Assembly: GCA_000002445.1 (NCBI GenBank)
Contig: CP000071.1
Span: forward strand, 1,472,001 to 1,536,000
From: Trypanosoma brucei
Lineage: Eukaryota
DNA length: 64,000 nt
Direction of reading: 5' to 3'
The position numbers and the translations under genes were made by a program. The notes beneath the pieces are model-generated. The model was not told where the DNA came from and made no database searches. It was given only the letters and a program-made list of their open reading frames with translations. Below, in pieces: positions 30,733 through 51,719 of the stretch (position 1 is the first letter of the stretch; every line of letters begins with the position of its first letter).

Positions 30733-33700
30733 ATGTCGCTCATTACAGACTTTCCATTCCATGCTTACTTGGGTGACCTGAAGACCCGCCGTGTGATGGG
30801 CGCCAAGGACGCCGTGTCCCTGTCTCTGCTTGCATCTGAGGATATGTCGGGGATCGCTTTCGTGGAGGTTCGCACGCGTGCCGGCCAGGAGGATCGTTCG
30901 GCACCTTGGCGTCCAGTTGTAAGAAATGGTGAGAATCACGCCACATTCTACGACACTCGAATGGGTAACTTCGACGCTAACCCGTTTCCACCACAGACAT
31001 GTCAAACGTGCGCAGCGAGCTTGACAGGAAAGTACGGCAATGAACGTTGTCACGGTCACTTTGGATTTGTTGGAATGCCGCGTATCCGCCCAGGCAGTGC
31101 GCATTCGGACTCCGATCGCCTTGTCGTTTTGAATCCGCACCTCGCGATGGATGCAGATCGTTTGTTCCGAGCGAAATGCTTCTTTTGTCACAAGTTTCGA
31201 GCACCAACATTTGATGTCGAACGATTCCGCCAGGCACTGGTTCTGGCCGACCATGGTTTACCAGGAGATGCGCTGCATCTTCTCGACACAGTGCCAACAG
31301 CGAAGGGTCACGATGCTATGCTGAACCACAGGCGCATGGCAAATGAGGAAATCGTCAACGATGTATCCATCCTTCAGTCGTATGTTGATCGTATCTTAAG
31401 GCAGCGCGCTAGTGGATGCAGTGAGGAGGATGCGAAAGCAAGAGTGACTATGGCACAGAAGGGAACTGTGGACGTTCGCAATGACATTTGCAACATGGCG
31501 ATTAGTCATCTAAGATCATTCAGTGGTCCTTGTAGCCACTGCACTGCTATTTCTCCGACCTTCTTGAAGCGCGGCGGTATTATTTTCTTTTTATTCAGGA
31601 AATCGAATCTTGTGACAAACATTGCCAAAGGATTCCTTACCCAGCAAGAGGTATCTGAGTGGGAGGCTGTCAACCGGCTGCATGGGAGGACTGGAACATA
31701 TTTTGATGGTCGTCAAATGCTTTTTCATATGAAAAACCTATTCGCAAAAGAGCAAGCTATCCTTGGTTTGCTGTACCCAAATCTTGGTGAACCGTCGGTT
31801 TTCACCAAAACCAACAAGGTTGTCCCAGCGAGTGAAAGGTACAAACTGTTCTTTTTGGACCGTATTCTCGTACCGCCATTACCCCTGAGGCTTTCGTCAG
31901 GCGTGAGAGTAAATGATAATGGTTTGATAATACCCGACGAGCAAACACGTGCTCTTTCCGATATATTGGGGTTTGTTGAGCAGATTGAGTGCTTCCACAC
32001 ATTGAGTGCTAATTCTACAAACGGGCGTAGTTTCATCACCGATGCGCAGAGGGCTGTGAATGAGTCGAACCTCCGCAACCTTCAACAAAAAGTGGATGAG
32101 TTTTATGCAGAAATCATAAATAGCTTTGCGAAGAAGGAGGGTCTCTTCCGCATGAATATGATGGGAAAGCGTGTCAATCAGGCCTGCCGTTCGGTTATTT
32201 CGCCTGATCCATTCGTTGAACCGAACGAAGTGCTTTTACCAAGACCACTAGCCCGTGCTTTGTCGTTTCCTGAGCAAGTTACTTGTTTCGCACCAGCTCG
32301 CATGAATCTGTTGAAACACTGCGTTGTGAACGGGCCACGTAAATACCCCGGCGCCACACACATTGAGCTTCGTCATGCCAACGGTGAGATCCGTTCTGTT
32401 GACCTTAATGTACCCGAGCAGACACGGCGGCAGCATGCTGCAAGGTTTTTTGCGATGGCCCAGAGTGGTGTGACGTTAATCGTTTATCGGCACATTCTTA
32501 ATGGTGATCGCGTTATATTCAATCGCCAACCCACACTCCATAAACCGAGTATGATGGGGTATCGCGTGAAGGTACTTTCAGGGTCCAAAACTATTCGCTT
32601 TCACTACGTGAATGGTAACTCCTTTAACGCAGACTTCGATGGTGATGAAATGAACGTTCACGTTCCGCAAAGCATTGAGACGCGGGCCGAGGTTGAAACG
32701 CTGATGGACGCAAACATCAACTACCTTGTGCCGACGTCTGGCAGACCGATCCGTGGTCTTATACAGGATCATGTGGCGGCAGGCGTTTTGGTAACGTTGC
32801 GCGACAAGTTCTTTGATCACTCCACCTTTGTGCAACTGGTGTACAATGGCGTCGGTCCATACATTCAGGAAAACGTTGGCATAACTCTTGCTGAACTTAT
32901 TCCCATTCCAGCAATTCTCATGCCTCGGCCAATGTGGACTGGAAAACAGCTGATATCTGTGATGGTTCGGTTTTCTAGTGGATTGTCTGCCGCAAGCGAC
33001 TGTGGACGGGAGATAGAGGGCGGAATCACACTCAAAGGCACTTCACAAATCCAACCCAGCGCATTTGACAGAATACCGGCGGGTAGCTGCGACGCAGTGC
33101 GTGTGAAATCCGGGGCAGTGGTTGATTCTACTGTCATGTTTGCGAACAGTGAGCTAATTACCGGATTCATGTGTAAGAAGCAGCTTGGAGCCTCTAATAT
33201 GTCTGCCCCCCACCATGTCTATGAGCTTTACGGGCCACATAGGACGGGACAGTTGTTCGCTGCTTTTGGCCGTGTTCTCCTGCTGGCTCTACGAAAGGAG
33301 GGTCTTTCTCTTGCGATGGACGATATGTTCCTCGTTGATGAAGAGCGCCGATGCGACTTGCTTAGGAAGCTTGATGATATAGCGTTGGATGTTCCAGATG
33401 AAGAGGCCACTGCTGCACCGATGATTGCAGATTATGCAACAAAGATTCAGCAGGAGTTTGTTCCGCAGCGCATGCTGGTGCCCTTCCCAAAGAATCATCT
33501 TCTTCTGATGACTATTTCAGGTGCGAAAGGGAGCAACCTGAACGCCACACAAATGTCACTGCAGTTGGGCCAGCAGCTGTTCGATGGACTGCGCGTTAAG
33601 CGTATGAACTCTTCCAAGACGCTTCCGTCCTTCTTCACTAATGAAAAGCGTGCCCGGTCCTTTGGGTTTGCTATGGGTTCCTTCGCCTCAGGGATCAGAC

Positions 33701-36078
33701 CAGCCGAGTATACCATTCATGCAATGGCTGGTCGCGACGGCCTTATTGATACCGCTGTGAAAACCTCCCGTTCTGGTCACTTGCAACGCTGCCTCATCAA
33801 AGGTCTCGAAAGCCTTGTGGTCCATTGGGACCGTACGGTGCGTGACTCCAACGGCAGCGTTATCCAATTTATGTATGGGGGTGACGGACTTGACCCGTGC
33901 AAGGCTTCTACGCTTACGGCGTGGGAGATGATGAAGGATAACGTAGTTGATGTTTCCAAGCGATTCGGAGGAGATGCCTCAGAAAGTGTTGCCGGTGCCG
34001 AGGATGGCGCGGCGGCAGGGTTGGAGGAGATGCGAAACGAAGATGGAAAGCCCACGACTGAGGCCGTGCAAAATGCGCATATGGAGCAGCAACTATCCAC
34101 GTATCCTCTTCCGGCCTCACTCGACAAGAGTTTGTCTGAGTATCTGTGCAAAAAAGCAGATTTCCCGCTCTTCCGCAAGGTGTCGACGCTAGCCCGTTGG
34201 GATGCGAAACAGCAGCTAAAAGAGAGGTTACAGCAAAGGCGCCAGAAGTGGGTTGGTGCCTTCGAAAAAACGCTTGCAGACATTACTGCCCGCAGGCGTC
34301 TGTGGGCATTGTGCGAACCCGGTGAGCCCGTTGGCCTCCTTGCAGCGCAAGCAGCTGGTGAGCCGTCAACACAGATGACCCTCAACACATTCCACACTGC
34401 TGGTTCAACTGTCTCCCACGTGACGGAGGGTATTCCTCGACTCCGCGAGTTACTGATCTACGCCTCCGTTAATAAGGCGGCTGTTGTTGTACCCGTTACT
34501 AATGCTACAGAGGAAGACGAGAAAGTAATCGCCAAAATGCTTCGTGCAGGTGTCGCCGCAAAACTGACCGACTGTCTCGCGAAGGTCACAGATGGCGCTG
34601 GTGGCCAAAGCGCTTCCAGCTCGATGCAGCGGAACTTAAACACTGGCTTTGGTAAGGGCTACCACTATCACGTTGCGCGAGGCCGCACTGGTATGGTGAT
34701 TACGGTGTCTTTCCTGTTTTCGCGCTCGTGTTTGGAGGAGTTGCGTAAGCGCATGTGTATGTCACCATCTGAACATCGACAATCTTTTACTGAAGCACTA
34801 AAGAATGTTGTGCGGCTCATCATGAGGTCACTGAGCGCCGTTCCACGCGAGAAGGAAAGCGGTGACGGTTCAGGGAACACTGGAGGGATGAAAGGGGGAA
34901 GTGGGCGCGCCGACAGGAAGAGAAAGCGATCAGGCCCGGACGATGGCGGTGGTCCTCTTGGGGGTACTTTCGGAGACGAAATTATGCGCATTGAAGAGGG
35001 AACCGATTCTGATGATGGCATGAGCGAGAGGAGCAGTATAGGTGGGGGTCGGGCTGGCTCGGAGGTCTCATCTCTACACTCGGATGGAACCGATACCAGG
35101 GGCATAGCAGGAAGCGATACGGGCGGGCCGCAGCGACGGAGGGGCTCTGTTGAAAGTGGCCGCGGTGACGATGCTTCTGACAGTGAGGCAGCTGACCCCG
35201 ACTTATATGCCAGACGAAGTGGCTCTCCGGCGAGGGATGCGGAGGATGGAGATGAGATGCAGGATCGGGACGGCACGGATTGGGGAGGAACGTCGATGCA
35301 AGGTGTGGTGGGATATGACAACTTCCCAGAGATTCACATGAGTTTCACCAAGTCAAATTTCGGTGCTGTTATTGCTCCCCTTAGTACTGCTGCAGCGGCC
35401 CGAGATGGGGTTGTGCAACTACACGAAGACTTTTTCATAGTTAATGCTGTGCTGCGCACGCCCTCGGACGTCATTGCCGTCATTCCGGACGTTGTGGATA
35501 ATGCTTTGGAGGCGCAGAGAATGCCCTCGTGGTTACCTCAATTCGGGTCCCTCACTTTCACTCGACTGAAAGATAAAGGATCTGGCCAGCTTGTTTTCCA
35601 AGGACCTGGCTCGACAATGCGGAATGTGATGTCTTTCCTTTCCCTTTTCACCGTTGGCATAAAATCGATAAAACTTCACCAAGCTTGCTCCACTGATATT
35701 CGGGATATGGGAACATACTTCGGCATTGAGTCTGGATACGCTGCGCTTTACGATGAGCTCAATAAACTATTCAACCGCTACAATGTCGACCCGCGGCACT
35801 TGTCGCTCATCGCCGATACGTCTACCCACCGAGGGCGATGGGAGAACTTCAATTTCACTGGTGTCATATCAACGAGCGCGAGCCCACTGTTTCAGATGAC
35901 ATTTGCCTCGTCGAAGCGCTGGTTGCACAGAGCGGTGAGTCGGGGAATGAGTGACGACCTCGAGTCCTTTAGTTCTGCCATCATGGTGGGGGAACGCCCT
36001 CGTGTGGGAACGGCGTCCGTGCGGCTCTCGACTGATACGGCGATTTTGCGGGATGTGCTCGAGAGGAACTTTGCATAA
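30733..36078 (+). CDS. RPA1: DNA-directed RNA polymerase I largest subunit (RPA1).
   Basis: 1781 aa. N-terminal zinc-binding motifs (CQTC...CHGHFGFV, CFFCHKF). Universal active-site motif YRVKVLSGSKTIRFHYVNGNSFNADFDGDEMNVHVPQS. Bridge-helix and trigger-loop regions are conserved. The protein ends right after the last conserved block, so there is no CTD and it is not RPB1. The long length with Gly/Asp/Ser-rich insertions fits Pol I rather than Pol III. Synteny with PFR2 and ARL6 fits my memory of T. brucei chromosome 8. Confidence 0.82.
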   Translation: MSLITDFPFHAYLGDLKTRRVMGAKDAVSLSLLASEDMSGIAFVEVRTRAGQEDRSAPWRPVVRNGENHATFYDTRMGNFDANPFPPQTCQTCAASLTGKYGNERCHGHFGFVGMPRIRPGSAHSDSDRLVVLNPHLAMDADRLFRAKCFFCHKFRAPTFDVERFRQALVLADHGLPGDALHLLDTVPTAKGHDAMLNHRRMANEEIVNDVSILQSYVDRILRQRASGCSEEDAKARVTMAQKGTVDVRNDICNMAISHLRSFSGPCSHCTAISPTFLKRGGIIFFLFRKSNLVTNIAKGFLTQQEVSEWEAVNRLHGRTGTYFDGRQMLFHMKNLFAKEQAILGLLYPNLGEPSVFTKTNKVVPASERYKLFFLDRILVPPLPLRLSSGVRVNDNGLIIPDEQTRALSDILGFVEQIECFHTLSANSTNGRSFITDAQRAVNESNLRNLQQKVDEFYAEIINSFAKKEGLFRMNMMGKRVNQACRSVISPDPFVEPNEVLLPRPLARALSFPEQVTCFAPARMNLLKHCVVNGPRKYPGATHIELRHANGEIRSVDLNVPEQTRRQHAARFFAMAQSGVTLIVYRHILNGDRVIFNRQPTLHKPSMMGYRVKVLSGSKTIRFHYVNGNSFNADFDGDEMNVHVPQSIETRAEVETLMDANINYLVPTSGRPIRGLIQDHVAAGVLVTLRDKFFDHSTFVQLVYNGVGPYIQENVGITLAELIPIPAILMPRPMWTGKQLISVMVRFSSGLSAASDCGREIEGGITLKGTSQIQPSAFDRIPAGSCDAVRVKSGAVVDSTVMFANSELITGFMCKKQLGASNMSAPHHVYELYGPHRTGQLFAAFGRVLLLALRKEGLSLAMDDMFLVDEERRCDLLRKLDDIALDVPDEEATAAPMIADYATKIQQEFVPQRMLVPFPKNHLLLMTISGAKGSNLNATQMSLQLGQQLFDGLRVKRMNSSKTLPSFFTNEKRARSFGFAMGSFASGIRPAEYTIHAMAGRDGLIDTAVKTSRSGHLQRCLIKGLESLVVHWDRTVRDSNGSVIQFMYGGDGLDPCKASTLTAWEMMKDNVVDVSKRFGGDASESVAGAEDGAAAGLEEMRNEDGKPTTEAVQNAHMEQQLSTYPLPASLDKSLSEYLCKKADFPLFRKVSTLARWDAKQQLKERLQQRRQKWVGAFEKTLADITARRRLWALCEPGEPVGLLAAQAAGEPSTQMTLNTFHTAGSTVSHVTEGIPRLRELLIYASVNKAAVVVPVTNATEEDEKVIAKMLRAGVAAKLTDCLAKVTDGAGGQSASSSMQRNLNTGFGKGYHYHVARGRTGMVITVSFLFSRSCLEELRKRMCMSPSEHRQSFTEALKNVVRLIMRSLSAVPREKESGDGSGNTGGMKGGSGRADRKRKRSGPDDGGGPLGGTFGDEIMRIEEGTDSDDGMSERSSIGGGRAGSEVSSLHSDGTDTRGIAGSDTGGPQRRRGSVESGRGDDASDSEAADPDLYARRSGSPARDAEDGDEMQDRDGTDWGGTSMQGVVGYDNFPEIHMSFTKSNFGAVIAPLSTAAAARDGVVQLHEDFFIVNAVLRTPSDVIAVIPDVVDNALEAQRMPSWLPQFGSLTFTRLKDKGSGQLVFQGPGSTMRNVMSFLSLFTVGIKSIKLHQACSTDIRDMGTYFGIESGYAALYDELNKLFNRYNVDPRHLSLIADTSTHRGRWENFNFTGVISTSASPLFQMTFASSKRWLHRAVSRGMSDDLESFSSAIMVGERPRVGTASVRLSTDTAILRDVLERNFA

Positions 36079-37140
36079 TCGCCTGAACCGCTATTTTAAG
36101 TATATATATATATGTATATTACCTTTTTTGTTTTTTCTTTGCGCTTTTACCTCCTCTTTTGTCTCAACTTTTTTTAATTTTATGAGAGGCACTTGTGTGA
36201 AATTGGACACCATAAAGGGCTGAGGAGGGAAGCAGAGAGCAAATGAAAATATGGGAGGGTGAAAAATACATACATATATATTTGTGTTTGTTCGTATTTG
36301 GAGGGATACAAATACGATATATGAAGATATCAACAGTTTTTCACCTGTGGGGGAAGCGTGATTATTATCAGTGAGTGGATGGACTGAAGAACGAATAAAT
36401 GTGTAACAATTTCGTCCTTCATTTTTTCTTCGGTGGCAGACGGGTTTAAATCTAATCGGATAAATAGCACTAAAGTAACGAATGTTAAAATAACCACCGC
36501 AAAGGCATACCTTTTCCTTTTTTGCCCTTTGTGGTGGGAAGTCAGTGGCAAAAGGAAGCGAGAGTAGCGACAGGGAAAGTCTCAGTGCCATGTGACCGTT
36601 TCAGAAAAGAAAATGAAAAAAAGAAGGAAGGGGGAGGGCTGAATGAAGAGAAGATATGCGGGTAAAGGAGGTGCATAACACGAGTGTCAATGCATCGTTT
36701 CAGTGGGTGGTGCACGTGCGCATGTGTTTGTGAGGGTGCGAATCTTTGCCACGTGCTACTTAATTAATGGTAATGGTGCGTGTAGGGGTCCATATACCTT
36801 CTCGTACACGCGGAACCCTCATTTCGGTGGGTGCGTTTGGCAGCGTAACTTTTGTAAACGCCCATCTCCGATGACATGTCTTTCTCTCTTTGAATTGTCC
36901 TTGTTTCCTCAGTTTTCTTATGCTCGTTTCCTCTTTGTTTTTTTCTTTTATGTATTTTCTTACCTATTCTTATCACAACTTTGCTGAGACGCGCGGCGCC
37001 TCTTTTTCTCTAGAGTGACAGCCCAGGTTTGTGCGCTCAATTAACTTCGTTGATTGTGGCGCTAGCTGACAACAGCGTGCGGTGGTGGTGGGAAAAGGGG
37101 TAAGGGAGGCACCGAAGCAAAGGTGTTTGTTTTGTTTATT

Positions 37141-40100
37141 ATGTTGGTGACACCAATCCTGCGACTTCCCACTAGGCGCAGCGTTGCCATTACCCACGGA
37201 ATAGGCAACTCCTTAGCCGCAATTGGGCTTAGGAAACTCAGCTCGGCTGCCAGTAACCGGAAGAGGGGTTCTAACAGCGATAGTGACGGCGCCACTGCGC
37301 GGCGGGACGGCGGTCTCTTGCTTCTCCAGCTAAAGTGGCGGGCTAAGGAGTTGCTACTCGCTGAGTATGATAAAAAGGAAAGTCAGAAGAAGCCTCAGAT
37401 TCTTCAGGTGCATGCAGATGGTACTTTTGATGTCGAATGGCGCAACCAACTTCCGCACAAGGCGTCATCTGCAGCCCGCCCAACGGAAGAGGAGAGAGTG
37501 ACACTTCTGTGTCAACTGCTTGCTGTTACGGTAAAGGAGCGCTGTGGTCGGGGTGCACAAGACTGCTTCTTCGCCTCATTCCCCACGGATGCCTCTGTCT
37601 TGTTACCAGCGAGGGCTGCAGAGGCGGTGGTAGCTCCTTTTGGTCGGCAAGCTAGGTTATGGGAAGAGCAGCATGAGTGGCAAGCCATTGTTTCATGTGC
37701 CGCAAAGGTGTTTGGATCATGGGGCATCAAACACACCAAGGATAGTAGAGATGCCCGCAGGAGGGGTAGTTACTCTAATCTCCAGCTCCGTACTGTGGTA
37801 CGCAACTTTGTGGACAAGGTTGAGTCGCTCTGTTCGCTGAGGTTGGGTGCATCGAGGGAAATGGCGGCGAAAGGGCGTCAGAAACGAACGAAGCGTCCAA
37901 AGATGTCGGAGGGTGGCGATGTAGCAGAAGATGGATTAACTCCTGACACGATGCTGAACACGTTATATCGACTAGCAGTGCTATTGCGTTTGCTAAGCTG
38001 CCTTTTTGAGAGATGTGAGGGTCAGGTGGGGTCGGTAGCGGACTGCGAGCACTTAAAGGAGGTTGTACACTGTATTTTAAGTGAAATAGAGAGCCGTCGT
38101 TTTATCGTAGTGGGTTTGGACGGCTCCTCGGAAGCGATGGAAGGATTGGCCGCGCTTGTCCTCGCAGCATTCGGCCGTAACTGTGGTGGTATTCGTGCTG
38201 GAGGTAGTCGTGTTGGTAGTGAAGTACACTGGCGCGCATATAAGGGTGAGTTCTCAGAAGCCCTGCTGTTACTCTGCTCAGCATATCTGAGGATTGTTCC
38301 CGCCCGTGCTGTAGGATTTGAACTGGAGTCTTCAGGAACGGGGAGTGAACCAACCAGTATTTCAAACTCTGAGACCATTTCTGTTGTTCGGGCGCTCCAC
38401 CAATGTTGGGATCGCTGGAAGGCTACAATCCACGTGCACGGTTCAGCTGCCGCGTTCTGGTGGTTGAGACTGGTTCCGCTCATCCTCGAGGCGCTGTTAG
38501 ACGCAACTGAAAAGATGAGTAACAGTAGAGGCCACAAAGGTGACGCTGACAGTAGAGAATCCCAGGTTAAGTTGTTGCAGTCGGAGTTGTTGGCGACGTT
38601 GTGTGGGATGCTTTACTTTGATGAAGAAAGATACAATGAGCGGATGACAATACTCTCAGCACGGCAGGCAGCAGAAGAAGCTAAGGTAGGACAAGTTGGT
38701 AACGGCGGCGACGGAGACAACCCCACCAACGCCACTCCCTCGGAGACCGAAGCTGACGATGCCCACGGCCTCACGCGGCCGCGTGCTGGCCGCTCTATGC
38801 TGAGGAAGGGCCAGGAGGGGGGTGTTTTGCTTCCAAGCTCTAGTGAGGCACTGCGGAAGTCGTCGCGATTTTTGTCTAGAAGGACCGTAGGCGACAGTGG
38901 CGGTGGTGTTGGCGCTAATACAAATGCCGGCACCGCGTTGATGGATGTGGGGGTCAACAGTCCTTTGTTTGACCTGCTAGCCACATCAGACGACGCTGTT
39001 TCAGAGCTGTCTTCTTTGTTCGCTATCGAAAAAATGGGCCGCAGTTGTACACTGGAGAATCTGTGGTTGATTTTATTGGCTGCGCATCGTCACTTGCGAC
39101 CTTACAGAACTTCCTCAGCAGTGTGTACCCACGAGGGTGATGGTGAACTTGGGAAGGAGGCAAATAATTTCTTTTCTGGTGACGAAGTTGTTGTGGAAGC
39201 GAATGCGTCCAATGGGAAATCCCCCATGACTCTTGCTGTCCCAGCCTTTGTGTTGGCTAGTATACAGCATCTTGCAACCACCCTCGCATGTGCTGTCGTG
39301 AATTTATACGATTTATCCGACCCCTCGTTCCTTCGAGATGATAATATTCGACGCGCAGTTAGCATCGCTATCGTAGCCGGGACACAAGAATTACTTTTAA
39401 GGAGCCGTTTTTATTCCGATGCGCTCCTAAGTAATTGGTGGCTTCGAAGTGGGGTGTCATCTGCGTTTGGGGAAGGACAAAAATCATTTGCTTCACTGGA
39501 AAACCATATGATGGCTCTAGTTGCACAGCGCACTCGTTACCGTGGACGGCTGGGGTGGGTAAAAGAGTCCACTAGGGTTGCGCTGCATTGTCTCTCTTCC
39601 ATGCCACTCTCTCCGCTGGCGAAGCAGTGGGCCGCTTCTCTCGTTGTGTGCAACTTGCGTGATGTCACCTTTTTATTACGCAACCAACGCGTTGGCATCT
39701 CATCATCCACCGCATTTGCTCTTGCCAAGGGCACGCTGACTGACAGTGCCGCTGCCGCGGACGTTGATGGTTCGGAGCGCCTCTCGTTGGATGGATGGGC
39801 ACGCGAAACATTCACTACTCTTCTTGCCACACTGACAGCTGATGTGGAGCTGGTGCTGTTGTGCGGGTATGCGGGCTTTATAGACACGTTGTTCGAGATG
39901 CATATGCGAATTGGCACAAATCAGGAGGAGATGATGCGTTTTGGAGATGATGTGCTTCTGAACGTGAATCTTGCGGCTGTCCTCGCGAGCCTGTCGAAGA
40001 GTGCCACCGATTCTGATGCCGAAACGCACGCAGCCACCTGTGAATCTGCGCTTTTTGTACTTGCTGAGTTTTCGCGTTTTGCTTCGTGGCCCAACTTAGA

Positions 40101-43100
40101 TAATTCATCGGTGCTCCGAACGGACGGAAACAGCCTGCTTATTCGCGTCGCAGTGTACTGTCTGCGGCATGCGCGCCGTGCTGGGGGCAAGCGACCCAGC
40201 GGTTACGGGCTGCCTGCACCACACCTTCCAGAAGCAGGTGAAATGGTTGAGAAGGTGCTTTCAACGTGTGGGCCAACGTTGTCTTTTCTTCTAGCGCGAG
40301 GTAACCGTTGCTCATACCTTCAAGTTCTTGACTTGAGCAACCGGTTGCTACCCTTTTCCCGTGTGCAACCGCTATACGGTGGGCGAGAGAGCAGCTGCGT
40401 TGCTGCACTTCAACACTATCTGCGGGGTTCGCACCATGCGTTGCTGTCGATGCCATCATCATCAACTCCTACTGGGCCTACAGTGGCTGCTAACATTAGT
40501 GGGAGTGGGGCTGCCAGCCAAAAGCAGTTGTTAGAGGAATCGTTGAAGCGGCTTAACTTTATGGCAAATACCACCATCAGCACTCATGTCCTTGGATATT
40601 TGGTTCGCTTCGTTGAGCACTACCTGCGCGAGCAAGAACGTTGTTCTCGTAGCACAATGGAAGATCTGCCCACTACTACCACTGGTTGCCACTCACCTTC
40701 TTTACACGGGGATGAGAATGTTGCGGCTGACAGAAGCAAGGAACAGAGGGAAAGTGCCATGGTAACACTAGCACGTGTGGAGGCAGCTCCGCTTGTGTTG
40801 CTGGACTACATGGGTTACCTCAGCTGTGCGGGTAGTTGGGCCATGGTCAACTGGACTTTCAACCTCGCCGAGACATCGCTAAAAATCCAAAGAAAACACC
40901 AAATAGCCACGACGACCTCGGTAGTGGACGTGGCCGTCGGGGCGATTCTCTCCCAACTGCGTGCTGTTGTTATGCCAGCGACCCCACAGATTCCTAGCAA
41001 TATGCCGAAAAGTTTGATTTGCCTGTGCGACATGATATCCGAGTCACCTGTGACACTGCTAGGTTTCGATCGTGGGTCGCCACTGCAAGGAATTCTGAAA
41101 CAAACATCTCGTGGGGATTACCGTGCAATGCTGTTTGCAATGAAGCAAGCTGTGTTATTGGTCCAGCGGGCCTCGGCAAAATACCGCACCTCCGCACCGC
41201 ATTCACCCAACGATGCGTCGGGAGGGGAGAAGAACGATGAAGCAAGCGTTGGAGGCGATGACCGTAGTGGGGCGGAGGTGAAGGCGTACTTTTCTATGCC
41301 CGTTGGTGAATGTTCACCCGACGACCAGAGGCAACTTCGTCTTTTTCTTGAATGCTTGCTTATGTGCTTTGATGATGTACTCGACGCCATACGTTGGTGT
41401 GCTTTGCAACAAGACGTTCTCGACGACGAGTTGCGTGACGTGCTTCTTCTAGAGCTGCAAACATTGATTCGCATCCTTCGGGGATGCTTAAGGACTGTTT
41501 TGCTTCTTTCTCCCGAGCAAAAGCGGCGCTTTCATGGTGAGTCTGCACAACTATTGTGGGTTAGCTTGTGTGTTGCTTCCGCTATTGGCAAGGTTGCGTC
41601 AGTAGATTACGGACGAATATGCTTTTCTGGGACTGTTATGCACTCTGTTGCAGCCCTTTTGGATGGTGTTGAGCGGTTGGTGAAGGAACATACTGTTTCC
41701 GGTGCGCACAAGAACAAACAGGCAAACAAGAAGGAACCTGCTGATGTGGACAGAAGAAGTGGTGGGGCACCTCTGATGGGGGCAATAGAGTTAAGTCTTA
41801 ACTTGTTTTTTTCAGATGCACTGATGTCACATCGACTTGCCCTGCGGCTGGGGCTTGGGTTGCGTGAGCGATCCGACTTTACAGCACTTGCCACAGCACT
41901 AAGGACTCTTGCATCCGCAGCCGCACGATATGAACCGGCGGGACGGATAGTACAGTTTGTCTGGCGGACGCTTTGTGAAGAGCTTGTGAATACTGTGAAA
42001 CCAGTTAAGCGGAAAGGAAGGGGCTCAAAGGCCACTAAGGAACCCTCGGCTGGTGTAAAGGTTCCATCAAAGGACGAACTCAAACTATTGTTAGATTCCT
42101 TTAACGACCTTCAGAATGAAGTTGCTGAGAGCGTTGCATCGCGACAATCGAAGGGGCGGGCCGCTGAATACGTGGTGGAGTGGGCGTGTCCTGATGCACA
42201 GGCTGTTCTCGATAGTGTGGTGGAAGATCCCAGTGTACTGCGTGGTGACCGTTGGCGGAAGAGGGAAACCAACAGCAGTGACCCAACCTCTCTTAGTGAC
42301 AGTTGTGAAAAGGAGGAAGAAGAGCAGTCTCTAGCGGATTGGAGTGCGACCATACCTACCACTGCCGTCCCAGGTGCTGTGGCCGCGTTCATGGAAATGG
42401 ACGCGGCCCTTTTACTGGAGGACGGTGGTAACGTAACTAATGAAGAGGCACTGGAGGCGTTCTTACGCCAGTGTAGTCGTTTGCATCTCTCATCGACGGT
42501 GGTGGCATCAAATGATTCAAACGTTGCGATTCCACAGACGAACAAAGTCATCCTAATACACTTTGGTTGCGTGATGGCTATTGTGGAGCGCTGCACATTG
42601 GCGGAGATCGCGTCCTTTCCGCGGGGAGAGTTAGTTTTTGGTAGCCTTCATCTCTTTTACCGCCCACAAACACCTGTACCACTGGAAAAACTTCATATGC
42701 TGTGGTTGAAACTTGGCGAACGGTGGAATGAGGAGTTCATTATTCCTGACTGTAAGATATTTGAAAGGCAGCAGCAAGAGTTTTTACAGCTCGTGCGACA
42801 GCGTCGCGCTTTGTTTCAGCCTTCTGAACGAGGGATGGAGGATACCGCGGGCTCGCACCCAAATGACCACGAGAAGGAGGGACTTCTCTTGCGAGATAGT
42901 GTGATAGCGCGGCTCGCACGGCAAAATGTTCCGCCTCTTCCGTACGATGTTGAAATGTTGCCTCATGATGGATTTAGCGCCCTCGACGGGGGCTTCACGG
43001 CGCTGTCTGGATCGAGTCAGCAATTTAAGGATCGGTTACCCTTTCGCATCCCGCTAGACGCACTCCTCACACTTCTACATGACTTTTCCCGTGCACCCCG

Positions 43101-45783
43101 TGGAGAAACGCCGCTGGAAGAGTTTGCGAAAGGTGTCATCACTTACGTTGCACGTCAGCACGTTCTGTTGAGGGAGCGCTGTGATGGCCACGCAGTGAAT
43201 GTCCTGCAGTTTATGCCTCAAGGGCAACAATTTTCATCACGTGTGTACCAGCGGAGGCGACTACCACTTGTGTGCGCTCACGCACCTTCAGTCACTGGCT
43301 GGTTCTTTGATGAGGCAGAAGGGGAGGCTATAAAAAGGTTGTTTGCGCAAGCTGCTGCTTCCGGCGGCTGCACAAGGGCCGACAAGACGGGTGCAGGGGG
43401 TGAAGACGCTGTGGGTAATCTTGTCCGCTCAGCGGAGCATGGAATGTTTGAATACTTGCGCGCTTTATGTCTTTACTTACATTTGTTGGCCCTCACAGCA
43501 AATGTGTGCCACCACTTCCGCATACTGGGAAGTAGCGGTGAGATGAGCGATGTCCACTCCGGAGTGGTGGTTGGAAGAAGTCACAACCGCTACGGTTTCG
43601 AGGAAGAAAACAAAGACAGTATGGGCTGGCGTACGACCCGTGGAAAGGGTACGGGAAATGAGCAGCAAGACGCGAATGTGCGCCTATCCGAGCGGCGAGT
43701 AAACGCTGATGCCCGTCAGGCAGATCCTGAGGGTGTCAATGCAAATCTTCTTGAAAACATTTTACTGCACTTTATGAACGTGTCATTGGCTGTCATAGGT
43801 CATGCGGACTCTGTAACCCACCGAGCTGCGAGTATCGCCGTAGCCCCCGGTTGTGATGAGGAGCGCGCTCGTCGCGCATTATTCTATGCAGATGAGTTGC
43901 GGTTGATGGTTGCTGTAGCCGTGCAGGACTCCCTTCGTGTGTTGCTGCGGGAAGCCCCGGTTAGTTTTTCCCTCGCACGGCGTGTTACCCACCGTATCAT
44001 TTCAAGCTTCTCCTGTGAAGAGATTCCGTTGACTCCACTTGATGGTGACACAACAGGCGAGGGTTCCACCGCCGTTACAGGTGGAGCCTCAAAGGACCAC
44101 AACAATAGTGGTTTTGGAAGGCATATTGGGGATGAAAAACAAGTGGGTGGTGCGCTATCCGAACTCCCCCAAATCGATAGGGCAGAACTAACGAAGCTGC
44201 GCCTGAAGCGACCGGAGCTTCTGCTGCGGTCGCCTACGCTGCTTTGTATATTGTCGCCTTCTTTTTTCAATGAGGTTCTCTCGCAACACGTACGCAACGC
44301 TATCAGCCTCACCGTGACGCAGGTGGTAGCTTCGTTGCGCTTCTACCTGCGCGGACCTGATGCACGTCTCGGGCCGTTGATGTCGGCAACTGCAAGCATA
44401 CTTGCGAGTACCTACGTGCGAAACGCGGCATTGCGTCTTTTCTGCGAAGAGCTTTGTGGCCAGATCGTCGACCGTGACGATTTCCGTGATGCACTCGCTC
44501 CGCAGACTGTGGCTTCTGGACAACAGGGCGTTGTTGCGCCCGTTCCAAACGAGGTGCTCATCCCCTTTCTTGCCGCCATAGCGCGTGAGGATGCGTGTGT
44601 GACAAAAAATGCGTTGGCGCTGGTGCTCCACCGAGCCATGAGCCTGCGCCCCGATGTCTTTGGCCAGCCGCCCACGGAGGACCGCTTCTCACGGCTCGCC
44701 ATTGCCAGGCGAGGAAGTGGGATTGCGACCCCATCGAAGGTAGCGGGAGTTGGGTCCGATGGGATGGCGAGGGATCGACTGAGTCTTGGAGTTTCTACGG
44801 CAGACGTTGTGTTGGAGAGGCCAGCTGGGGCAGGAACTTCTCCAACGAGAGCCGAATGTGGAGAGGACATCGCAGAGATCGATCTTCCCACGCCAGGCAC
44901 CGATGACGAGGAGTGGGATGAAGTGACTGCGCTGAATCGCTTCAAAGTTAATCAGGCTGAGCAGGAAATTACACGAACGCACAAACGCGCCCTTGCGTCA
45001 CTCAACCTTACGCTTGCCGAGGTGATGGAAACAGCAATGCACTTTTCCACGATGCGGCGCTTAACATCGGAAGAACATAAAAAGGCGACGGCAATGATAC
45101 GATCAGCGGATGACGCAAGACACGAACGCGTTGCTGCTTTCCGCAGCGCCACCCCACCCGCTACAACGGGGTCGATAACTGGGAAAAGTTCCAGTGCATC
45201 TGTCCTCAAGGGTGACGGTGGTGAAGAAAGGAACATTAAAAGCAGCGACGATTCCCTTACCATCGCGGGTCACCCTGATGCTGCGTTGAACATCGACGAA
45301 CCAACAAACTTTGGCGTTGCGATGCTCCACATCAGCTTTGCACTTCGTAAAATCATCCACGTCTCCATGCGCCGACTTGCCGCACAACAGGGACCGAAAA
45401 CTCTTTGCATGATGGTGGAGATGCTTCGGGAAGTGGATCCTAAATGGCACCATGGTCCAAATGATGAACATCGAAGGCAGCTGGATAGTATGCTCGTGGG
45501 CACGCTACGGGTACTTGTGGCCCGCGCACTTGTCTGCGCAGATGCTGTGGGAGGAGCGGATGACTTGATGGCTGGTGGTGCCAGCGGTGTGGCAATGAGC
45601 CTTGCGGGGTTACAGAGGACAGAACGGGCATTGTACCTCGTACAGCACCTCAAGAATGGCAACCGCGGGGGGAGCGCTGGGCCCAACGTGGCAAAGAGTA
45701 AATGCACCAGTAGGGGCGTGAGCAGAGGTGCAAGTAGGGATTTGAGGAGACAACGCCCGGGGTGCATGGCGCCTGTGAGGTAG
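37141..45783 (+). CDS. Very large (about 2880 aa) uncharacterised protein. Predicted mostly alpha-helical (Ala/Leu/Ser/Arg-rich), possibly an alpha-solenoid (HEAT/ARM-like) scaffold. First ATG used; the track start at 37123 is GTG.
   Basis: Single uninterrupted 8.6-kb ORF with strong coding bias. No catalytic motif recognised (no P-loop, kinase, helicase, chorein or PI3K-like signature seen by eye). Long amphipathic helical stretches. Confidence 0.7.
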   Translation: MLVTPILRLPTRRSVAITHGIGNSLAAIGLRKLSSAASNRKRGSNSDSDGATARRDGGLLLLQLKWRAKELLLAEYDKKESQKKPQILQVHADGTFDVEWRNQLPHKASSAARPTEEERVTLLCQLLAVTVKERCGRGAQDCFFASFPTDASVLLPARAAEAVVAPFGRQARLWEEQHEWQAIVSCAAKVFGSWGIKHTKDSRDARRRGSYSNLQLRTVVRNFVDKVESLCSLRLGASREMAAKGRQKRTKRPKMSEGGDVAEDGLTPDTMLNTLYRLAVLLRLLSCLFERCEGQVGSVADCEHLKEVVHCILSEIESRRFIVVGLDGSSEAMEGLAALVLAAFGRNCGGIRAGGSRVGSEVHWRAYKGEFSEALLLLCSAYLRIVPARAVGFELESSGTGSEPTSISNSETISVVRALHQCWDRWKATIHVHGSAAAFWWLRLVPLILEALLDATEKMSNSRGHKGDADSRESQVKLLQSELLATLCGMLYFDEERYNERMTILSARQAAEEAKVGQVGNGGDGDNPTNATPSETEADDAHGLTRPRAGRSMLRKGQEGGVLLPSSSEALRKSSRFLSRRTVGDSGGGVGANTNAGTALMDVGVNSPLFDLLATSDDAVSELSSLFAIEKMGRSCTLENLWLILLAAHRHLRPYRTSSAVCTHEGDGELGKEANNFFSGDEVVVEANASNGKSPMTLAVPAFVLASIQHLATTLACAVVNLYDLSDPSFLRDDNIRRAVSIAIVAGTQELLLRSRFYSDALLSNWWLRSGVSSAFGEGQKSFASLENHMMALVAQRTRYRGRLGWVKESTRVALHCLSSMPLSPLAKQWAASLVVCNLRDVTFLLRNQRVGISSSTAFALAKGTLTDSAAAADVDGSERLSLDGWARETFTTLLATLTADVELVLLCGYAGFIDTLFEMHMRIGTNQEEMMRFGDDVLLNVNLAAVLASLSKSATDSDAETHAATCESALFVLAEFSRFASWPNLDNSSVLRTDGNSLLIRVAVYCLRHARRAGGKRPSGYGLPAPHLPEAGEMVEKVLSTCGPTLSFLLARGNRCSYLQVLDLSNRLLPFSRVQPLYGGRESSCVAALQHYLRGSHHALLSMPSSSTPTGPTVAANISGSGAASQKQLLEESLKRLNFMANTTISTHVLGYLVRFVEHYLREQERCSRSTMEDLPTTTTGCHSPSLHGDENVAADRSKEQRESAMVTLARVEAAPLVLLDYMGYLSCAGSWAMVNWTFNLAETSLKIQRKHQIATTTSVVDVAVGAILSQLRAVVMPATPQIPSNMPKSLICLCDMISESPVTLLGFDRGSPLQGILKQTSRGDYRAMLFAMKQAVLLVQRASAKYRTSAPHSPNDASGGEKNDEASVGGDDRSGAEVKAYFSMPVGECSPDDQRQLRLFLECLLMCFDDVLDAIRWCALQQDVLDDELRDVLLLELQTLIRILRGCLRTVLLLSPEQKRRFHGESAQLLWVSLCVASAIGKVASVDYGRICFSGTVMHSVAALLDGVERLVKEHTVSGAHKNKQANKKEPADVDRRSGGAPLMGAIELSLNLFFSDALMSHRLALRLGLGLRERSDFTALATALRTLASAAARYEPAGRIVQFVWRTLCEELVNTVKPVKRKGRGSKATKEPSAGVKVPSKDELKLLLDSFNDLQNEVAESVASRQSKGRAAEYVVEWACPDAQAVLDSVVEDPSVLRGDRWRKRETNSSDPTSLSDSCEKEEEEQSLADWSATIPTTAVPGAVAAFMEMDAALLLEDGGNVTNEEALEAFLRQCSRLHLSSTVVASNDSNVAIPQTNKVILIHFGCVMAIVERCTLAEIASFPRGELVFGSLHLFYRPQTPVPLEKLHMLWLKLGERWNEEFIIPDCKIFERQQQEFLQLVRQRRALFQPSERGMEDTAGSHPNDHEKEGLLLRDSVIARLARQNVPPLPYDVEMLPHDGFSALDGGFTALSGSSQQFKDRLPFRIPLDALLTLLHDFSRAPRGETPLEEFAKGVITYVARQHVLLRERCDGHAVNVLQFMPQGQQFSSRVYQRRRLPLVCAHAPSVTGWFFDEAEGEAIKRLFAQAAASGGCTRADKTGAGGEDAVGNLVRSAEHGMFEYLRALCLYLHLLALTANVCHHFRILGSSGEMSDVHSGVVVGRSHNRYGFEEENKDSMGWRTTRGKGTGNEQQDANVRLSERRVNADARQADPEGVNANLLENILLHFMNVSLAVIGHADSVTHRAASIAVAPGCDEERARRALFYADELRLMVAVAVQDSLRVLLREAPVSFSLARRVTHRIISSFSCEEIPLTPLDGDTTGEGSTAVTGGASKDHNNSGFGRHIGDEKQVGGALSELPQIDRAELTKLRLKRPELLLRSPTLLCILSPSFFNEVLSQHVRNAISLTVTQVVASLRFYLRGPDARLGPLMSATASILASTYVRNAALRLFCEELCGQIVDRDDFRDALAPQTVASGQQGVVAPVPNEVLIPFLAAIAREDACVTKNALALVLHRAMSLRPDVFGQPPTEDRFSRLAIARRGSGIATPSKVAGVGSDGMARDRLSLGVSTADVVLERPAGAGTSPTRAECGEDIAEIDLPTPGTDDEEWDEVTALNRFKVNQAEQEITRTHKRALASLNLTLAEVMETAMHFSTMRRLTSEEHKKATAMIRSADDARHERVAAFRSATPPATTGSITGKSSSASVLKGDGGEERNIKSSDDSLTIAGHPDAALNIDEPTNFGVAMLHISFALRKIIHVSMRRLAAQQGPKTLCMMVEMLREVDPKWHHGPNDEHRRQLDSMLVGTLRVLVARALVCADAVGGADDLMAGGASGVAMSLAGLQRTERALYLVQHLKNGNRGGSAGPNVAKSKCTSRGVSRGASRDLRRQRPGCMAPVR

Positions 45784-49300: not shown

Positions 49301-49920
49301 TCGACGTCAGTGACACTGTTGTAGAGGACATTTCGGCACTCCTGCATTCTTCATGCACACTTCAACGGTTTGTTTGCCGTTGGGGGGAGCGGAGGGTCGC
49401 AAATGGCCTAACGGAGCCGTTGACTCCTTGGTTGCGACCTGCGTTGCTAGATGGCATGGATGCGCTTCCCCATTTGGAAAGCATTGATTTCACAAACTCC
49501 ACCCTTCGATCCGTCACGTTCCTCGCCCGTTCACGTTCGCTTCGGCGTATTGTGTTGGGGCGGAGCAGTAATCTTTCGAACAACGGCATCGGTGGTCTCG
49601 CCCAGATCCCAACTTTGGAGGCGTTGGACCTTAGTTTTTGTGCTCGCATCAGTGACGTGCGGCCACTTGTATCATCGTCTTCTTTGCAGGAGTTAAGGTT
49701 AGTTGGAACCGGTGTGACGGCTGTCGGACTCCACGGCGCATTGCAAATGAAGGCGCTGAAACTTTTAGATGTCACGGGAACTCCCGCAGCAGACGAATTG
49801 AGTGGTATTAGTAATGAGGGAGGCCCGGTGCTTGTGGTTAAGGGCGGTGAGGCGTGCAGCACAAACTTTCCTTCATTATTCAGGCGGTGCCGAACAAGTC
49901 CTGTTGTGATACTACAGTAA
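46354..49920 (+). CDS. Leucine-rich-repeat protein, 1188 aa. Ser/Thr/Pro-rich, probably disordered N-terminal half, then about 25 tandem LRRs of roughly 23-25 residues.
   Basis: Repeated LxxLDLSxTxVTSxxLxGL-type units from about residue 520 to the C-terminus, e.g. LNLSGTAVTSDGLLGLEKIPSLTTLNLSRTKVKSL, LDFSTTKVSDLSFL, LDVSDTVVEDISAL and LDLSFCARISDVRPL. ATG start. Confidence 0.75.
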   Translation: MRGLLSHNIGAMKHPEYPRTDSDASYTRPLTMDSARAASVSGSAQSGLPVVSSMQRTHPGSPRTTVAWDRRDANAGKAEPQTAIDMLATALLQPSPKAFVESAHINRSSTPKKVRTPPVKHGSPNKQGPRCHARSSNGGTDGALRLKATTRSEKPEEVPPVGTGCSATDGAKLTTDERVLIGRTASDLYLFSKTKTKGGRSVGRQRKRLEGQASEMTIAGKRVCVHEKTPATSRKDQLLAHPNMVMTTSNGSDSQDSSQTTDSRDGWWEEGKGQVVNPLSVTKLKVHQSVDDGDTPLPISIDVMCSTPDNSEEIADSVSSVGSSLCSGTASLVKGQMDIIPNLTEENGSDQGVSHRGEDLSGEVKSKESSQLLVGENGVLDAQRRLSSVKKASDFRLQSAGAKPPGKLVATGESLRGAGDSCESAAHKVEEISKKTMEVLDQVRNSCLTVAPAPTNIATGSPPGVSVARNPSNVSSIKPISCGSAGCRKNQEAVVSEKTSKDLAIEEQRVLMGYLSASELDLSMSTFKQIGCSLRVSKALRVLNLKGCTASEKGLCGLSEVESLEVVCVSHMRNLTSLTVLATRQDGLSSNIREIDARCSSVTSAGLSGLDKMTCLSKLNLSLTPVTSVSLLGGSTSLMELNLSGTAVTSDGLLGLEKIPSLTTLNLSRTKVKSLQKIAESQTLENLNLYSCRVDTSDVRGVECMPRLKSLDFSTTKVSDLSFLSSSPSLKTLRAQWLTLRNCGGITEGRYSKRNISGGDTKLFDFIGNIRGNNFPCWEDPGKEDQDVEAGVCGLAKIPTLEFVDLSYSSVSSVRSLFSSKSIETIVLRRTPIDDNGIKDIGQLQTLKTLVINNLGDLISEGGDENLSETKGVLVSVKDITLAFGMVILDLSFTDVYDLRMITSLKCLKELYLVETLITVDGIRGVEQLPSLRLLDISQTSVLSLDFLSEGCKALEQLFVKSNRNTSGFCIGKIYRLPMLKELDVSDTVVEDISALLHSSCTLQRFVCRWGERRVANGLTEPLTPWLRPALLDGMDALPHLESIDFTNSTLRSVTFLARSRSLRRIVLGRSSNLSNNGIGGLAQIPTLEALDLSFCARISDVRPLVSSSSLQELRLVGTGVTAVGLHGALQMKALKLLDVTGTPAADELSGISNEGGPVLVVKGGEACSTNFPSLFRRCRTSPVVILQ

Positions 49921-50285
49921 CCCTACAGTGAGAAGAGATGCCTTGCGCTTCGTTTGTTCACATGACGCATGATCGGCGTGCTTTTACACTTATATCTGCG
50001 AAGCTCGTGTTTCTTCCTTTTTATTTTTTTAAAAAAAGCTTCAATGTTTTAATGGGGCGGCGATGTGAAACGTGGGGCTACGAGCGTGAGGTGAACTCGG
50101 CTAATTATTATGAGCAGGAGAAGAGAGAAGTGGTGAGGGCGGTACTGCGCGCCGTGAAGACATGTGTAATATTTGCACTGCGTGAAATTGAATCATGAAG
50201 AGGAATGGAGATGACACGGGTTGATGTAGAAGAGAGGAAAAAATTTCTAGTAGTAGCGGTTTCGTAGTGACGAGTATAGTTAATT

Positions 50286-50318
<33 letters not shown>

Positions 50319-51446: not shown

Positions 51447-51477
<31 letters not shown>

Positions 51478-51719
51478 CGTGGGTGAAGGAAATGGGAACA
51501 ATTTTCACATGAAGCAAAAAAATAAAATAAAAAGGAAAAAAAAAGGAAAAAAAAAGAAGAAAATTGGATGAGGAATGAAGGGGAGGAAAGAAGAAGAAAA
51601 AGAAGAGGAGGTAAAATAATAATTAAAAAAAAAAAAGAGCACAAAAGACATAATGAAGCAAAAAAAAAAGGAAAAAGGAAAAAGGAAAGGAAAGGAAAAA
51701 GTGAAAATGAATATATGCA

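What the first reader, a model, noticed from the sequence alone, without database searches (positions are those of the whole stretch)
37141..45783. A 2880-aa ORF with no recognisable domain immediately downstream of RPA1
This is one of the largest ORFs a trypanosome genome encodes. It has a strongly helical, Ala/Leu-rich composition suggestive of a HEAT/ARM-type solenoid. It shows no enzymatic signature and no chorein-type N-terminus. Candidate roles are a scaffold (transport, nuclear pore, chromatin or flagellar) or a kinetoplastid-specific giant protein. It is uncharacterised on the basis of sequence alone.
Basis: inference. Interest (0 to 1): 0.5.

Follow-up and report, generated by a model that had tools for sequence, protein, structure and literature searches.

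The report
Giant orphan kinetoplast protein Tb927.8.5100
The 2880-codon ORF is real and is the annotated Trypanosoma brucei gene Tb927.8.5100, a 314-kDa, all-helical, kinetoplastid-only protein that published data show is imported into the mitochondrion and sits at the mitochondrial DNA (kinetoplast); its function is still unknown.

Summary
An ATG-initiated ORF runs from 37141 to 45783 on the + strand (2880 aa), directly downstream of RPA1, and it matches no Pfam, NCBIfam or PDB entry.

It is identical to T. brucei TREU927 XP_847340.1 / Q57UI2 = Tb927.8.5100, annotated "hypothetical protein, conserved".

Published ImportOmics data give 40 peptides, a 6-fold loss from purified mitochondria on ATOM40 knockdown, and positive TargetP and MitoFates predictions. 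The TrypTag source data list the gene under "kinetoplast". Nuclear-pore, flagellar, chromatin and vesicle-transport scaffolds are therefore effectively excluded.

An exhaustive HMMER search of 1.84 billion proteins found only 23 relatives. All are giant or fragments, and every named one is a trypanosomatid. The gene lies downstream of RPA1 in all three distant unnamed lineages checked.

Predicted secondary structure is almost entirely helical, but the AlphaFold models are poor (pLDDT 38-44). I found no internal repeats and no significant fold match. "HEAT/ARM solenoid" is therefore plausible but unproven.

My best reading is a non-catalytic helical scaffold at the kDNA disc, acting in kDNA maintenance or expression. 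The location is shown; the mechanism is inferred.

The gene, its expression, its import and its localisation are already public. Interest is low to moderate.

The parts
37141..45783 (+). Coding sequence of Tb927.8.5100 (2880 aa + stop; 313.8 kDa; pI about 7.1)
   Evidence: ORF listing and translation. 100% identical to XP_847340.1 / Q57UI2. The computed mass of 313,773 Da equals the 313.77 kDa listed for Tb927.8.5100 / Q57UI2 in PMC5436138.
36880..37140 (+). Upstream polypyrimidine tract, AG splice-acceptor candidates and short 5' UTR
   Evidence: Read directly from the sequence. The splice site itself was not mapped; this is inferred from the usual trypanosome gene layout.
37141..37278 (+). 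N-terminal mitochondrial presequence (about the first 46 aa: 8 basic and 0 acidic residues)
   Evidence: Composition of the N-termini of four orthologues. MRR.../MLR... starts in further orthologues. TargetP and MitoFates positive in PMC5436138 Suppl. Data 2. The cleavage site is not determined.
38770..38880 (+). Conserved basic motif (aa 544-580: LTRPRAGRSMLRK...SSRFLSRR) inside an otherwise low-complexity linker
   Evidence: R551, R576 and F577 are invariant, and S552 and R580 nearly so, in the 13-sequence family alignment. Alignment shown. No function tested.
39823..41160 (+). Central conserved helical blocks (aa about 895-1340; near-invariant H963, C967, W1233, D1297, K1335, Q1336)
   Evidence: Conservation profile and alignments of 19 family members. 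Invariant columns.
44173..44700 (+). Best-conserved block (aa 2345-2520), ending in ...VPNEVLIPFLAAIAREDxxV...LLH..M..RPDVFGQPP. Short helices of 10-16 residues, ARM/HEAT-like in appearance.
   Evidence: Conservation peak. This is the only stretch where the AlphaFold model reaches pLDDT 54-80 (model residues 660-830).
45283..45540 (+). C-terminal conserved helix block (aa 2715-2800) with FGVxxLHxxFALRKxxHxSxRR (H2730, K2737 and H2740 invariant)
   Evidence: Family alignment.
30733..36078 (+). Upstream neighbour RPA1 (Tb927.8.5090). The RPA1-then-giant gene order is conserved, which serves as evidence of orthology; RPA1 is not a functional partner.
   Evidence: Pfam Rpb1 domains. The same gene order occurs in L001, L002 and L005/L006.

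Best explanation
The ORF is Tb927.8.5100, a 314-kDa protein restricted to kinetoplastids.

Shown by published data and by sequence: it is made in the cytosol with an N-terminal presequence. It is imported into the single mitochondrion through the ATOM40 pore. It is expressed in procyclic cells. When tagged, it accumulates at the kinetoplast, the disc of catenated mitochondrial DNA.

Inferred: the mature protein is a long, almost entirely alpha-helical, non-catalytic platform. It is built of conserved helical blocks joined by fast-evolving low-complexity linkers. Conserved basic surfaces (the RxRGKRSLF...SRFxxRR motif and the FALRKxxHxSxRR helix) would hold it on kDNA or on kDNA-bound proteins. 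There it would organise some step of kDNA maintenance or expression. Which step is unknown.
For: Identity: 100% match to XP_847340.1 / Q57UI2. Accession and mass match Tb927.8.5100 in PMC5436138.

Mitochondrial import: in ATOM40-RNAi purified mitochondria the protein gave 40 peptides and 18.6% coverage. The ratio was 0.159 (log2 -2.65, p 2.9e-4), against the paper's threshold of log2 <= -0.62 and p < 0.05. It was also reduced in whole cells (0.52) and in organelle fractions (0.44). It is in the Panigrahi/Mach mitochondrial proteome and is TargetP- and MitoFates-positive. Presequence-like N-termini recur across orthologues.

Localisation: the gene is listed under 'kinetoplast' in the TrypTag source data. 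That is the same class as mtTF1 (Tb927.6.4510) and is distinct from 'kinetoplast point(s)'.

Lineage restriction and orthology: 23 hits in 1.84e9 proteins, with named ones only in Trypanosoma, Leptomonas and Phytomonas. Conservation is colinear over the full length. Synteny with RPA1 holds in three distant unnamed lineages.

Purifying selection: pN/pS 0.26 (16 non-synonymous, 20 synonymous) against a second T. brucei-group isolate.

Non-catalytic helical architecture: no Pfam, NCBIfam or PDB match for any of about 15 family members or for the family profiles. There are no transmembrane segments. The secondary structure in both AlphaFold models is essentially all helix. Extra length in larger orthologues is spread over low-complexity insertions rather than added domains.
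Against: The mechanism is not tested. The AlphaFold models are unreliable (mean pLDDT 44 and 38.5 from 4-sequence alignments). There are no detectable internal repeats and no significant fold match, so 'solenoid scaffold' is an argument from absence.

Invariant His, Asp, Lys and Cys residues (H963, C967, D1297, K1335, D2223, H2614, H2730, K2737, H2740) could equally mark an unrecognised active site or metal site.

The overall pI of about 7.1 is unlike the very basic kDNA-packaging KAP proteins.

The gene ID does not appear in the held supplementary text of a genome-wide kDNA-loss RNAi screen (PMC13191291), a cell-cycle RNAi screen or hyperLOPIT. Several of those files were truncated when stored, so these absences are weak evidence.

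The kinetoplast localisation rests on a single high-throughput tagging entry.
Confidence: 0.5

Rival explanations
1. It is a helical-repeat factor of mitochondrial gene expression (transcription-coupled RNA processing, gRNA or mRNA handling, or RNA editing support). It would be comparable in role to the PPR, OPR or HEAT-type organellar RNA-binding proteins, and would be seen at the kinetoplast because RNA synthesis and early processing happen there.
For: It has the same TrypTag class as the transcription factor mtTF1. It is all-helical with conserved Arg/Lys/His-rich helices. Alpha-solenoid proteins are the commonest class of organellar gene-expression factors, and several RESC subunits are ARM/HEAT-like (context from PMC6800514 and PMC13126933 as listed; not read in depth).
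Against: There is no PPR, RAP or other RNA-binding Pfam signal in any orthologue. It is not in the RNA-editing or MRB1 lists of PMC5436138. It is not among the proteins enriched with mtRNAP (Tables 1-2 of PMC13623095). It matches none of the T. brucei mitochondrial RNP chains deposited in the PDB.
Confidence: 0.2
2. It is an enzyme or nucleic-acid-processing protein whose all-alpha catalytic domain is too diverged to recognise, for example an HD- or HEPN-like metal or acid-base site. It would act on kDNA, for example in minicircle release or reattachment, or in repair.
For: Invariant or near-invariant polar residues sit in the conserved blocks: H963/C967, D1297, K1335/Q1336, the 'HADxxTH' stretch with D2223, H2614, and H2730/K2737/H2740.
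Against: No profile match to any catalytic family. The R2736-x3-H2740 spacing does not fit the HEPN Rx4-6H motif, and 'HAD' is not the HD doublet; both comparisons are by sequence inspection and from memory of the motifs, not a formal test. Conserved charged residues are equally expected at interaction surfaces.
Confidence: 0.12
3. It is a structural part of the kDNA segregation machinery: the inner, unilateral-filament end of the tripartite attachment complex, or the nabelschnur.
For: It is very large, lineage-specific and at the kinetoplast, like p197, TAC102 and TAP110 (general knowledge).
Against: The TrypTag paper treats TAC proteins separately from proteins that co-localise with kinetoplast DNA (main text), and the source data list this gene under 'kinetoplast'. 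No long coiled-coil-like sequence repeats were found. The ID is absent from the main text of the TAC discovery papers in the library.
Confidence: 0.08
4. It is a cytosolic, nuclear or flagellar HEAT/ARM scaffold (vesicle transport, nuclear pore, chromatin, flagellum).
For: Only the generic helical composition, and the non-significant Foldseek resemblance to karyopherins, Pds5, CAND1 and similar proteins.
Against: The presequence, the ATOM40-dependent accumulation in purified mitochondria and the kinetoplast localisation all argue against it.
Confidence: 0.02

Closest known systems
Uncharacterised kinetoplast-localised proteins of T. brucei catalogued by TrypTag/MitoTag (e.g. the KP proteins of bioRxiv 10.1101/2024.04.22.590512; mtTF1, Tb927.6.4510)
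   Same: Nuclear-encoded, imported into the mitochondrion, kinetoplastid-restricted, no recognisable domains, and fluorescent signal on the kDNA disc.
   Different: It is four to eight times larger than the characterised KPs (37-86 kDa). No RNAi phenotype, interaction partner or nucleic-acid binding has been reported for it in the library I could search.
HEAT/ARM alpha-solenoid scaffolds (karyopherins, Pds5, CAND1, RRP12; ARM/HEAT-like RESC subunits in the trypanosome mitochondrion)
   Same: All-helical prediction, large size, no catalytic signature. These are the top Foldseek matches, although none is significant.
   Different: No HEAT, ARM or related Pfam repeat hit. No internal repeats by BLAST or hhalign. 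Foldseek E >= 6.6e-3, TM about 0.1, rmsd about 30 A. Homology is not shown.
Basic kDNA-packaging proteins (KAP1-4, KAP6; histone-H1-like or HMG-box)
   Same: Mitochondrial presequence and kDNA localisation.
   Different: KAPs are small and very basic (general knowledge). This protein is 314 kDa with pI about 7.1 and has no HMG-box hit.
Giant tripartite-attachment-complex proteins (p197, TAC102, TAP110)
   Same: Very large, kinetoplastid-specific proteins acting around the kDNA.
   Different: No sequence similarity: the exhaustive search returned only one-per-species orthologues and no paralogues. It is listed as 'kinetoplast', and the TrypTag paper treats TAC proteins as a separate group.

Membership tests
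HEAT/ARM-type alpha-solenoid repeat proteins | Tandem 35-50-residue helical hairpin repeats detectable by repeat profiles or by self-similarity | tested here: not met
   No HEAT, ARM or other repeat Pfam family at E<=1 in 15 family members. Self-BLAST found no internal match. Profile-profile hhalign of twelve 240-aa family segments gave a maximum probability of 0.7%.
HEAT/ARM-type alpha-solenoid repeat proteins | A superhelical stack of helical hairpins in the three-dimensional structure | tested here: inconclusive
Bridge-like lipid transfer proteins (VPS13/BLTP) | Chorein-N domain and a beta-rich repeating groove | tested here: not met
   No Chorein_N or VPS13 Pfam hit. Predicted secondary structure is essentially all helix. 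The protein is mitochondrial, not at membrane contact sites.
Mitochondrial matrix-targeted proteins of T. brucei (ATOM40-dependent importome) | N-terminal presequence and ATOM40-dependent accumulation in mitochondria | tested here: met
   The N-terminus is basic and free of acidic residues. TargetP and MitoFates are positive. The log2 ratio of -2.65 (p 2.9e-4) passes the paper's threshold of -0.62 (PMC5436138). These are published data read here, not a new experiment.
Kinetoplast (kDNA)-associated proteins | Co-localisation with the kDNA disc | tested here: met
   The TrypTag source data list Tb927.8.5100 under 'kinetoplast' (PMC9981465 file 10). This is a single high-throughput observation and I did not see the image.
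Kinetoplast (kDNA)-associated proteins | Loss-of-function phenotype in kDNA replication, segregation or expression | not testable with these tools
   The ID is absent from the held supplementary text of the kDNA-loss screen and the cell-cycle RIT-seq. The original RIT-seq paper is not held.
Trypanosome mitoribosome proteins and assembly factors (mt-SAF/mt-LAF) | Presence as a chain in the solved T. brucei mitoribosome or assembly-intermediate structures | tested here: not met
   No PDB chain matches the protein or its profiles at E<=10. The mitoribosome column for this gene in PMC5436138 Suppl. Data 2 is not ticked.
PPR / RAP / other organellar RNA-binding helical repeat proteins | PPR, RAP or related profile match | tested here: not met
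   No such Pfam family at E<=1 in any scanned member.

The most novel reading that the evidence does not exclude
Tb927.8.5100 would be the founding member of a kinetoplastid-specific family of giant kDNA-organising proteins. It would be a central architectural or enzymatic component that helps build or remodel the catenated minicircle/maxicircle disc, or that couples the disc to transcription. It would have a fold or active site unrelated to any described family.
Probability: 0.15. Interest if true: 0.7.

Novelty: already known. Interest (0 to 1): 0.3.

Why it matters
The kinetoplast is the defining structure of this parasite group and a drug target. One paper estimates that about 300 proteins are involved in its replication, segregation and expression, and that only a fraction are characterised (abstract of PMC13191291).

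This gene is a concrete, well-expressed candidate. It is conserved, under purifying selection, has no human homologue, and already has import and localisation evidence, but no functional study that I could find. That makes it a reasonable target for RNAi and expansion microscopy.

It is not in itself a surprise. Trypanosomes encode many lineage-specific mitochondrial 'hypothetical proteins', and nothing found here changes a current view.

Tried and rejected
1. The word-index homologue search failed to retrieve known orthologues. Searches gave only 4 proteins, and search 3, with a clean conserved block, gave none. As a result the AlphaFold alignments could not be deepened, because only proteins returned by that tool may be submitted.

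3. Rosetta-stone idea: larger orthologues (up to 5796 aa) might carry an informative fused domain. They do not. The extra length is spread over S/T/P/E-rich insertions and there are no Pfam hits.

4. The T. equiperdum orthologue is annotated as two genes. I considered decay of a kDNA gene in a dyskinetoplastic lineage. The break is a 28-N assembly gap, so this is an artefact.

5. S-phase and kDNA-replication mRNA motifs (CAUAGAA, the PUF9 UUGUACC motif) are absent from both flanking intergenic regions.

6. There are no DNA tandem repeats in the ORF, no protein self-similarity and no transmembrane segments.

7. Literature: no paper's main text in the library contains the gene ID or its aliases. 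The ID was not found in the held supplements of the kDNA-loss screen, hyperLOPIT or the cell-cycle RIT-seq. The mtTF1 and Mol Cell complexome papers have no supplements held. The original RIT-seq paper is not held.
Full report
**Observation.** The window contains an uninterrupted reading frame at 37123..45783 on the + strand. The first ATG is at 37141 and gives a 2880-residue product. A long polypyrimidine tract and AG dinucleotides lie just upstream, as expected for a trans-spliced trypanosome gene. With the local base composition, 2880 open codons have a chance probability of about 1e-56. The two other forward frames contain 120 and 174 stops. The upstream ORF (30733..36078, 1781 aa) carries RNA polymerase Rpb1 domains 2-5. 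The wider window (five tandem PFR2 genes, an EMG1/NEP1 methyltransferase, an OTU protease, an amidase, an LRR protein, cytochrome c and a diacylglycerol kinase) shows one long co-directional trypanosome gene cluster.

**Identity.** The translation is 100% identical to T. brucei brucei TREU927 XP_847340.1 / UniProt Q57UI2, 'hypothetical protein, conserved', on a 2.48-Mb contig (chromosome 8). RPA1 is Tb927.8.5090 (PMC13056571). The supplementary tables of Peikert et al. 2017 list Tb927.8.5100 = Tb08.5H5.720 = Q57UI2 with a mass of 313.77 kDa. That is exactly the mass I compute from the window's ORF (313,773 Da). The same tables list Tb927.8.5120 as cytochrome c and Tb927.8.5140 as diacylglycerol kinase, matching the downstream ORFs. 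The finding is therefore Tb927.8.5100.

**No recognisable domain.** Pfam gives only a sub-threshold chance hit (Herpes_UL17, E 0.075). Scanning about 15 orthologues individually at E<=1 gives no family that recurs. NCBIfam gives nothing. Sequence and profile searches against all PDB chains give nothing even at E<=10, using the single sequence, a 4-sequence profile and a 10-sequence full-length profile. This also means the protein is not one of the chains in the solved T. brucei mitoribosome, assembly-intermediate or editing-complex structures. There are no transmembrane-like segments, no DNA tandem repeats and no internal protein repeats, either by self-BLAST or by profile-profile comparison of family segments (maximum probability 0.7%).

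**Family.** An exhaustive HMMER search of 1.84 billion cluster representatives, using a profile of the C-terminal 1200 residues, found only 23 proteins at E<=0.001. Full-length members are 2700-5796 residues; the rest are fragments. The members that carry names come from Trypanosoma (congolense, conorhini, grayi, vivax), Leptomonas seymouri and Phytomonas. All are annotated hypothetical. The others come from unnamed assemblies. A 19-sequence alignment is colinear over the whole length. Conservation peaks at aa 900-1020, 1200-1320, 1560-1620, 2400-2520 and 2700-2800, separated by low-complexity linkers. Pairwise identity between the four clades is only 16-30%. The neighbouring RPA1 is 46-51% identical between the same loci, so the giant protein evolves fast. 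In three distant unnamed lineages the orthologue again lies immediately downstream of RPA1, which supports orthology. Within the T. brucei group, pN/pS is 0.26 (16 non-synonymous and 20 synonymous differences), indicating purifying selection. The extra length in the larger orthologues is distributed over Ser/Thr/Pro/Glu-rich insertions and carries no Pfam domain.

The first 46 residues (MLVTPILRLPTRRSVAITHGIGNSLAAIGLRKLSSAASNRKRGSNS) have eight basic and no acidic residues. Orthologues start MRR..., MRTRR..., MLRIHR... or MRRLYLMKRW..., the usual look of trypanosomatid mitochondrial presequences. The published data agree:
- In Peikert et al. 2017 (PMC5436138) the protein was identified with 40 peptides (18.6% coverage) in gradient-purified procyclic mitochondria.
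- It fell to a ratio of 0.159 (log2 -2.65, p 2.9e-4) after knockdown of the import pore ATOM40. This is far beyond the paper's importome threshold of log2 <= -0.62 and p < 0.05.
- It also fell in whole cells (0.52) and in organelle-enriched fractions (0.44). It was not significantly affected by SAM50 or ERV1 knockdown.
- In the paper's reference table it is ticked for the Panigrahi/Mach mitochondrial proteome, TargetP and MitoFates. It is not ticked for the membrane, outer-membrane, respiratome, mitoribosome, RNA-editing or MRB1 lists.
- In the source data of the genome-wide tagging project TrypTag (PMC9981465) Tb927.8.5100 is listed under 'kinetoplast'. That class also contains the mitochondrial transcription factor mtTF1 (Tb927.6.4510) and is distinct from 'kinetoplast point(s)'. 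The paper describes kinetoplast-region proteins as falling into antipodal-site proteins, TAC proteins and proteins that co-localise with kinetoplast DNA.

**What it most likely does.** The following steps are shown: cytosolic synthesis with a presequence, ATOM40-dependent import, expression in procyclic forms, accumulation at the kDNA, lineage restriction and purifying selection. The following steps are inferred. The protein has no catalytic signature in any orthologue. It is built of many conserved helical blocks joined by disordered linkers. Its best-conserved features are Arg/Lys/His-rich: RxRGKRSLF...SRFxxRR at aa 544-580, and FGVxxLHxxFALRKxxHxSxRR at aa 2724-2745, where H2730, A2734, K2737, H2740 and R2744 would lie on one helix face. 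The most economical reading is a large non-catalytic platform bound to kDNA or to kDNA-bound proteins, organising some aspect of kDNA maintenance or expression. I give this combined statement about 0.5. The location part alone is about 0.9, and the scaffold mechanism alone is about 0.35-0.4.

**Rival readings.**
- An organellar gene-expression factor of the helical-repeat kind (0.2).
- An unrecognised all-alpha enzyme using the invariant His/Asp/Lys/Cys residues (0.12).
- A segregation or TAC component (0.08).

**Leads that failed.** The apparent splitting of the T. equiperdum orthologue into two genes could have suggested decay in a dyskinetoplastic lineage. It is caused by a 28-N assembly gap. 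Cell-cycle mRNA motifs typical of kDNA replication genes are absent from the flanks. The gene ID and its aliases occur in no paper's main text in the library. They also do not occur in the held supplementary text of a kDNA-loss RNAi screen, hyperLOPIT or a cell-cycle RNAi screen. Several of those files were truncated, so these absences are weak evidence.

**Comparison with what is known, and verdict.** The protein belongs, by localisation, with the growing list of kinetoplastid-specific kinetoplast proteins, of which the KP proteins and mtTF1 are characterised examples. It is not a demonstrable member of any sequence or fold family. The gene model, its expression, its mitochondrial import and its kinetoplast localisation are all already public, and my work adds no new function. 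I therefore rate it 'already known' as an object, with function open. It is a sensible candidate for a kDNA-biology laboratory but not a surprise: interest 0.3. The most novel reading not excluded is that it is a central, structurally new organiser or enzyme of the kDNA network. I give that reading a probability of about 0.15 and an interest of about 0.7 if true.

Noticed in passing
window 2818-13236 (+): Five tandem, near-identical 600-aa ORFs with a 2154-nt period. All are paraflagellar rod protein genes (Pfam Flagellar_rod, E 1e-106): the PFR2 array.
   Followed up: partly
window ~50000-57600: A 7.6-kb AT-rich stretch (GC 0.28-0.33, against about 0.5 elsewhere), full of A/T-rich microsatellites. 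Its only convincing ORF is cytochrome c (55060-55404, +, 114 aa; Tb927.8.5120). That ORF shows the single-cysteine haem motif AQCH in place of CxxCH. The unusually long AT-rich flanks were not explained.
   Followed up: partly
window 46354-49920 (+): A 1188-aa leucine-rich-repeat protein (LRR_4, LRR_8, Zer-1-like LRR) lies directly downstream of the giant ORF. Its N-terminal ~550 aa have no domain hit.
   Followed up: no
L002 10577-10604 (T. equiperdum OVI, GCA_001457755.2, CZPT02001661.1): A run of 28 N replaces 33 nt of the orthologue and shifts the frame. The public annotation therefore splits it into two 'genes' (TEOVI_000313100 and TEOVI_000313000). This is an annotation artefact, not a mutation.
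   Followed up: yes
L001 1-14341; L005 387-16635; L006 391-16638: The RPA1-then-giant gene order is conserved in distant, unnamed kinetoplastid assemblies (Logan SRR7085473, SRR22803237, SRR22803257). This holds even though the giant protein is only about 17-25% identical to the T. brucei one.
   Followed up: partly
window 38770-38880 (aa 544-580 of the ORF): A short, strongly conserved basic motif (RxRGKRSLF...SRFxxRR) is embedded in an otherwise non-conserved, Gly/Ser/Asp-rich linker. It could be a linear binding motif for nucleic acid or for a partner protein.
   Followed up: partly
L003 1006-18396 (Logan SRR22803247): One lineage has a 5796-aa orthologue, twice the T. brucei length. It is inflated throughout by Ser/Thr/Pro/Glu-rich low-complexity insertions rather than by extra domains.
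   Followed up: partly
window 57685-59424 (+): A 579-aa ORF with no Pfam hit lies between cytochrome c and the diacylglycerol kinase. By gene order it is probably Tb927.8.5130, which is listed in the mitochondrial reference table of PMC5436138.
   Followed up: no
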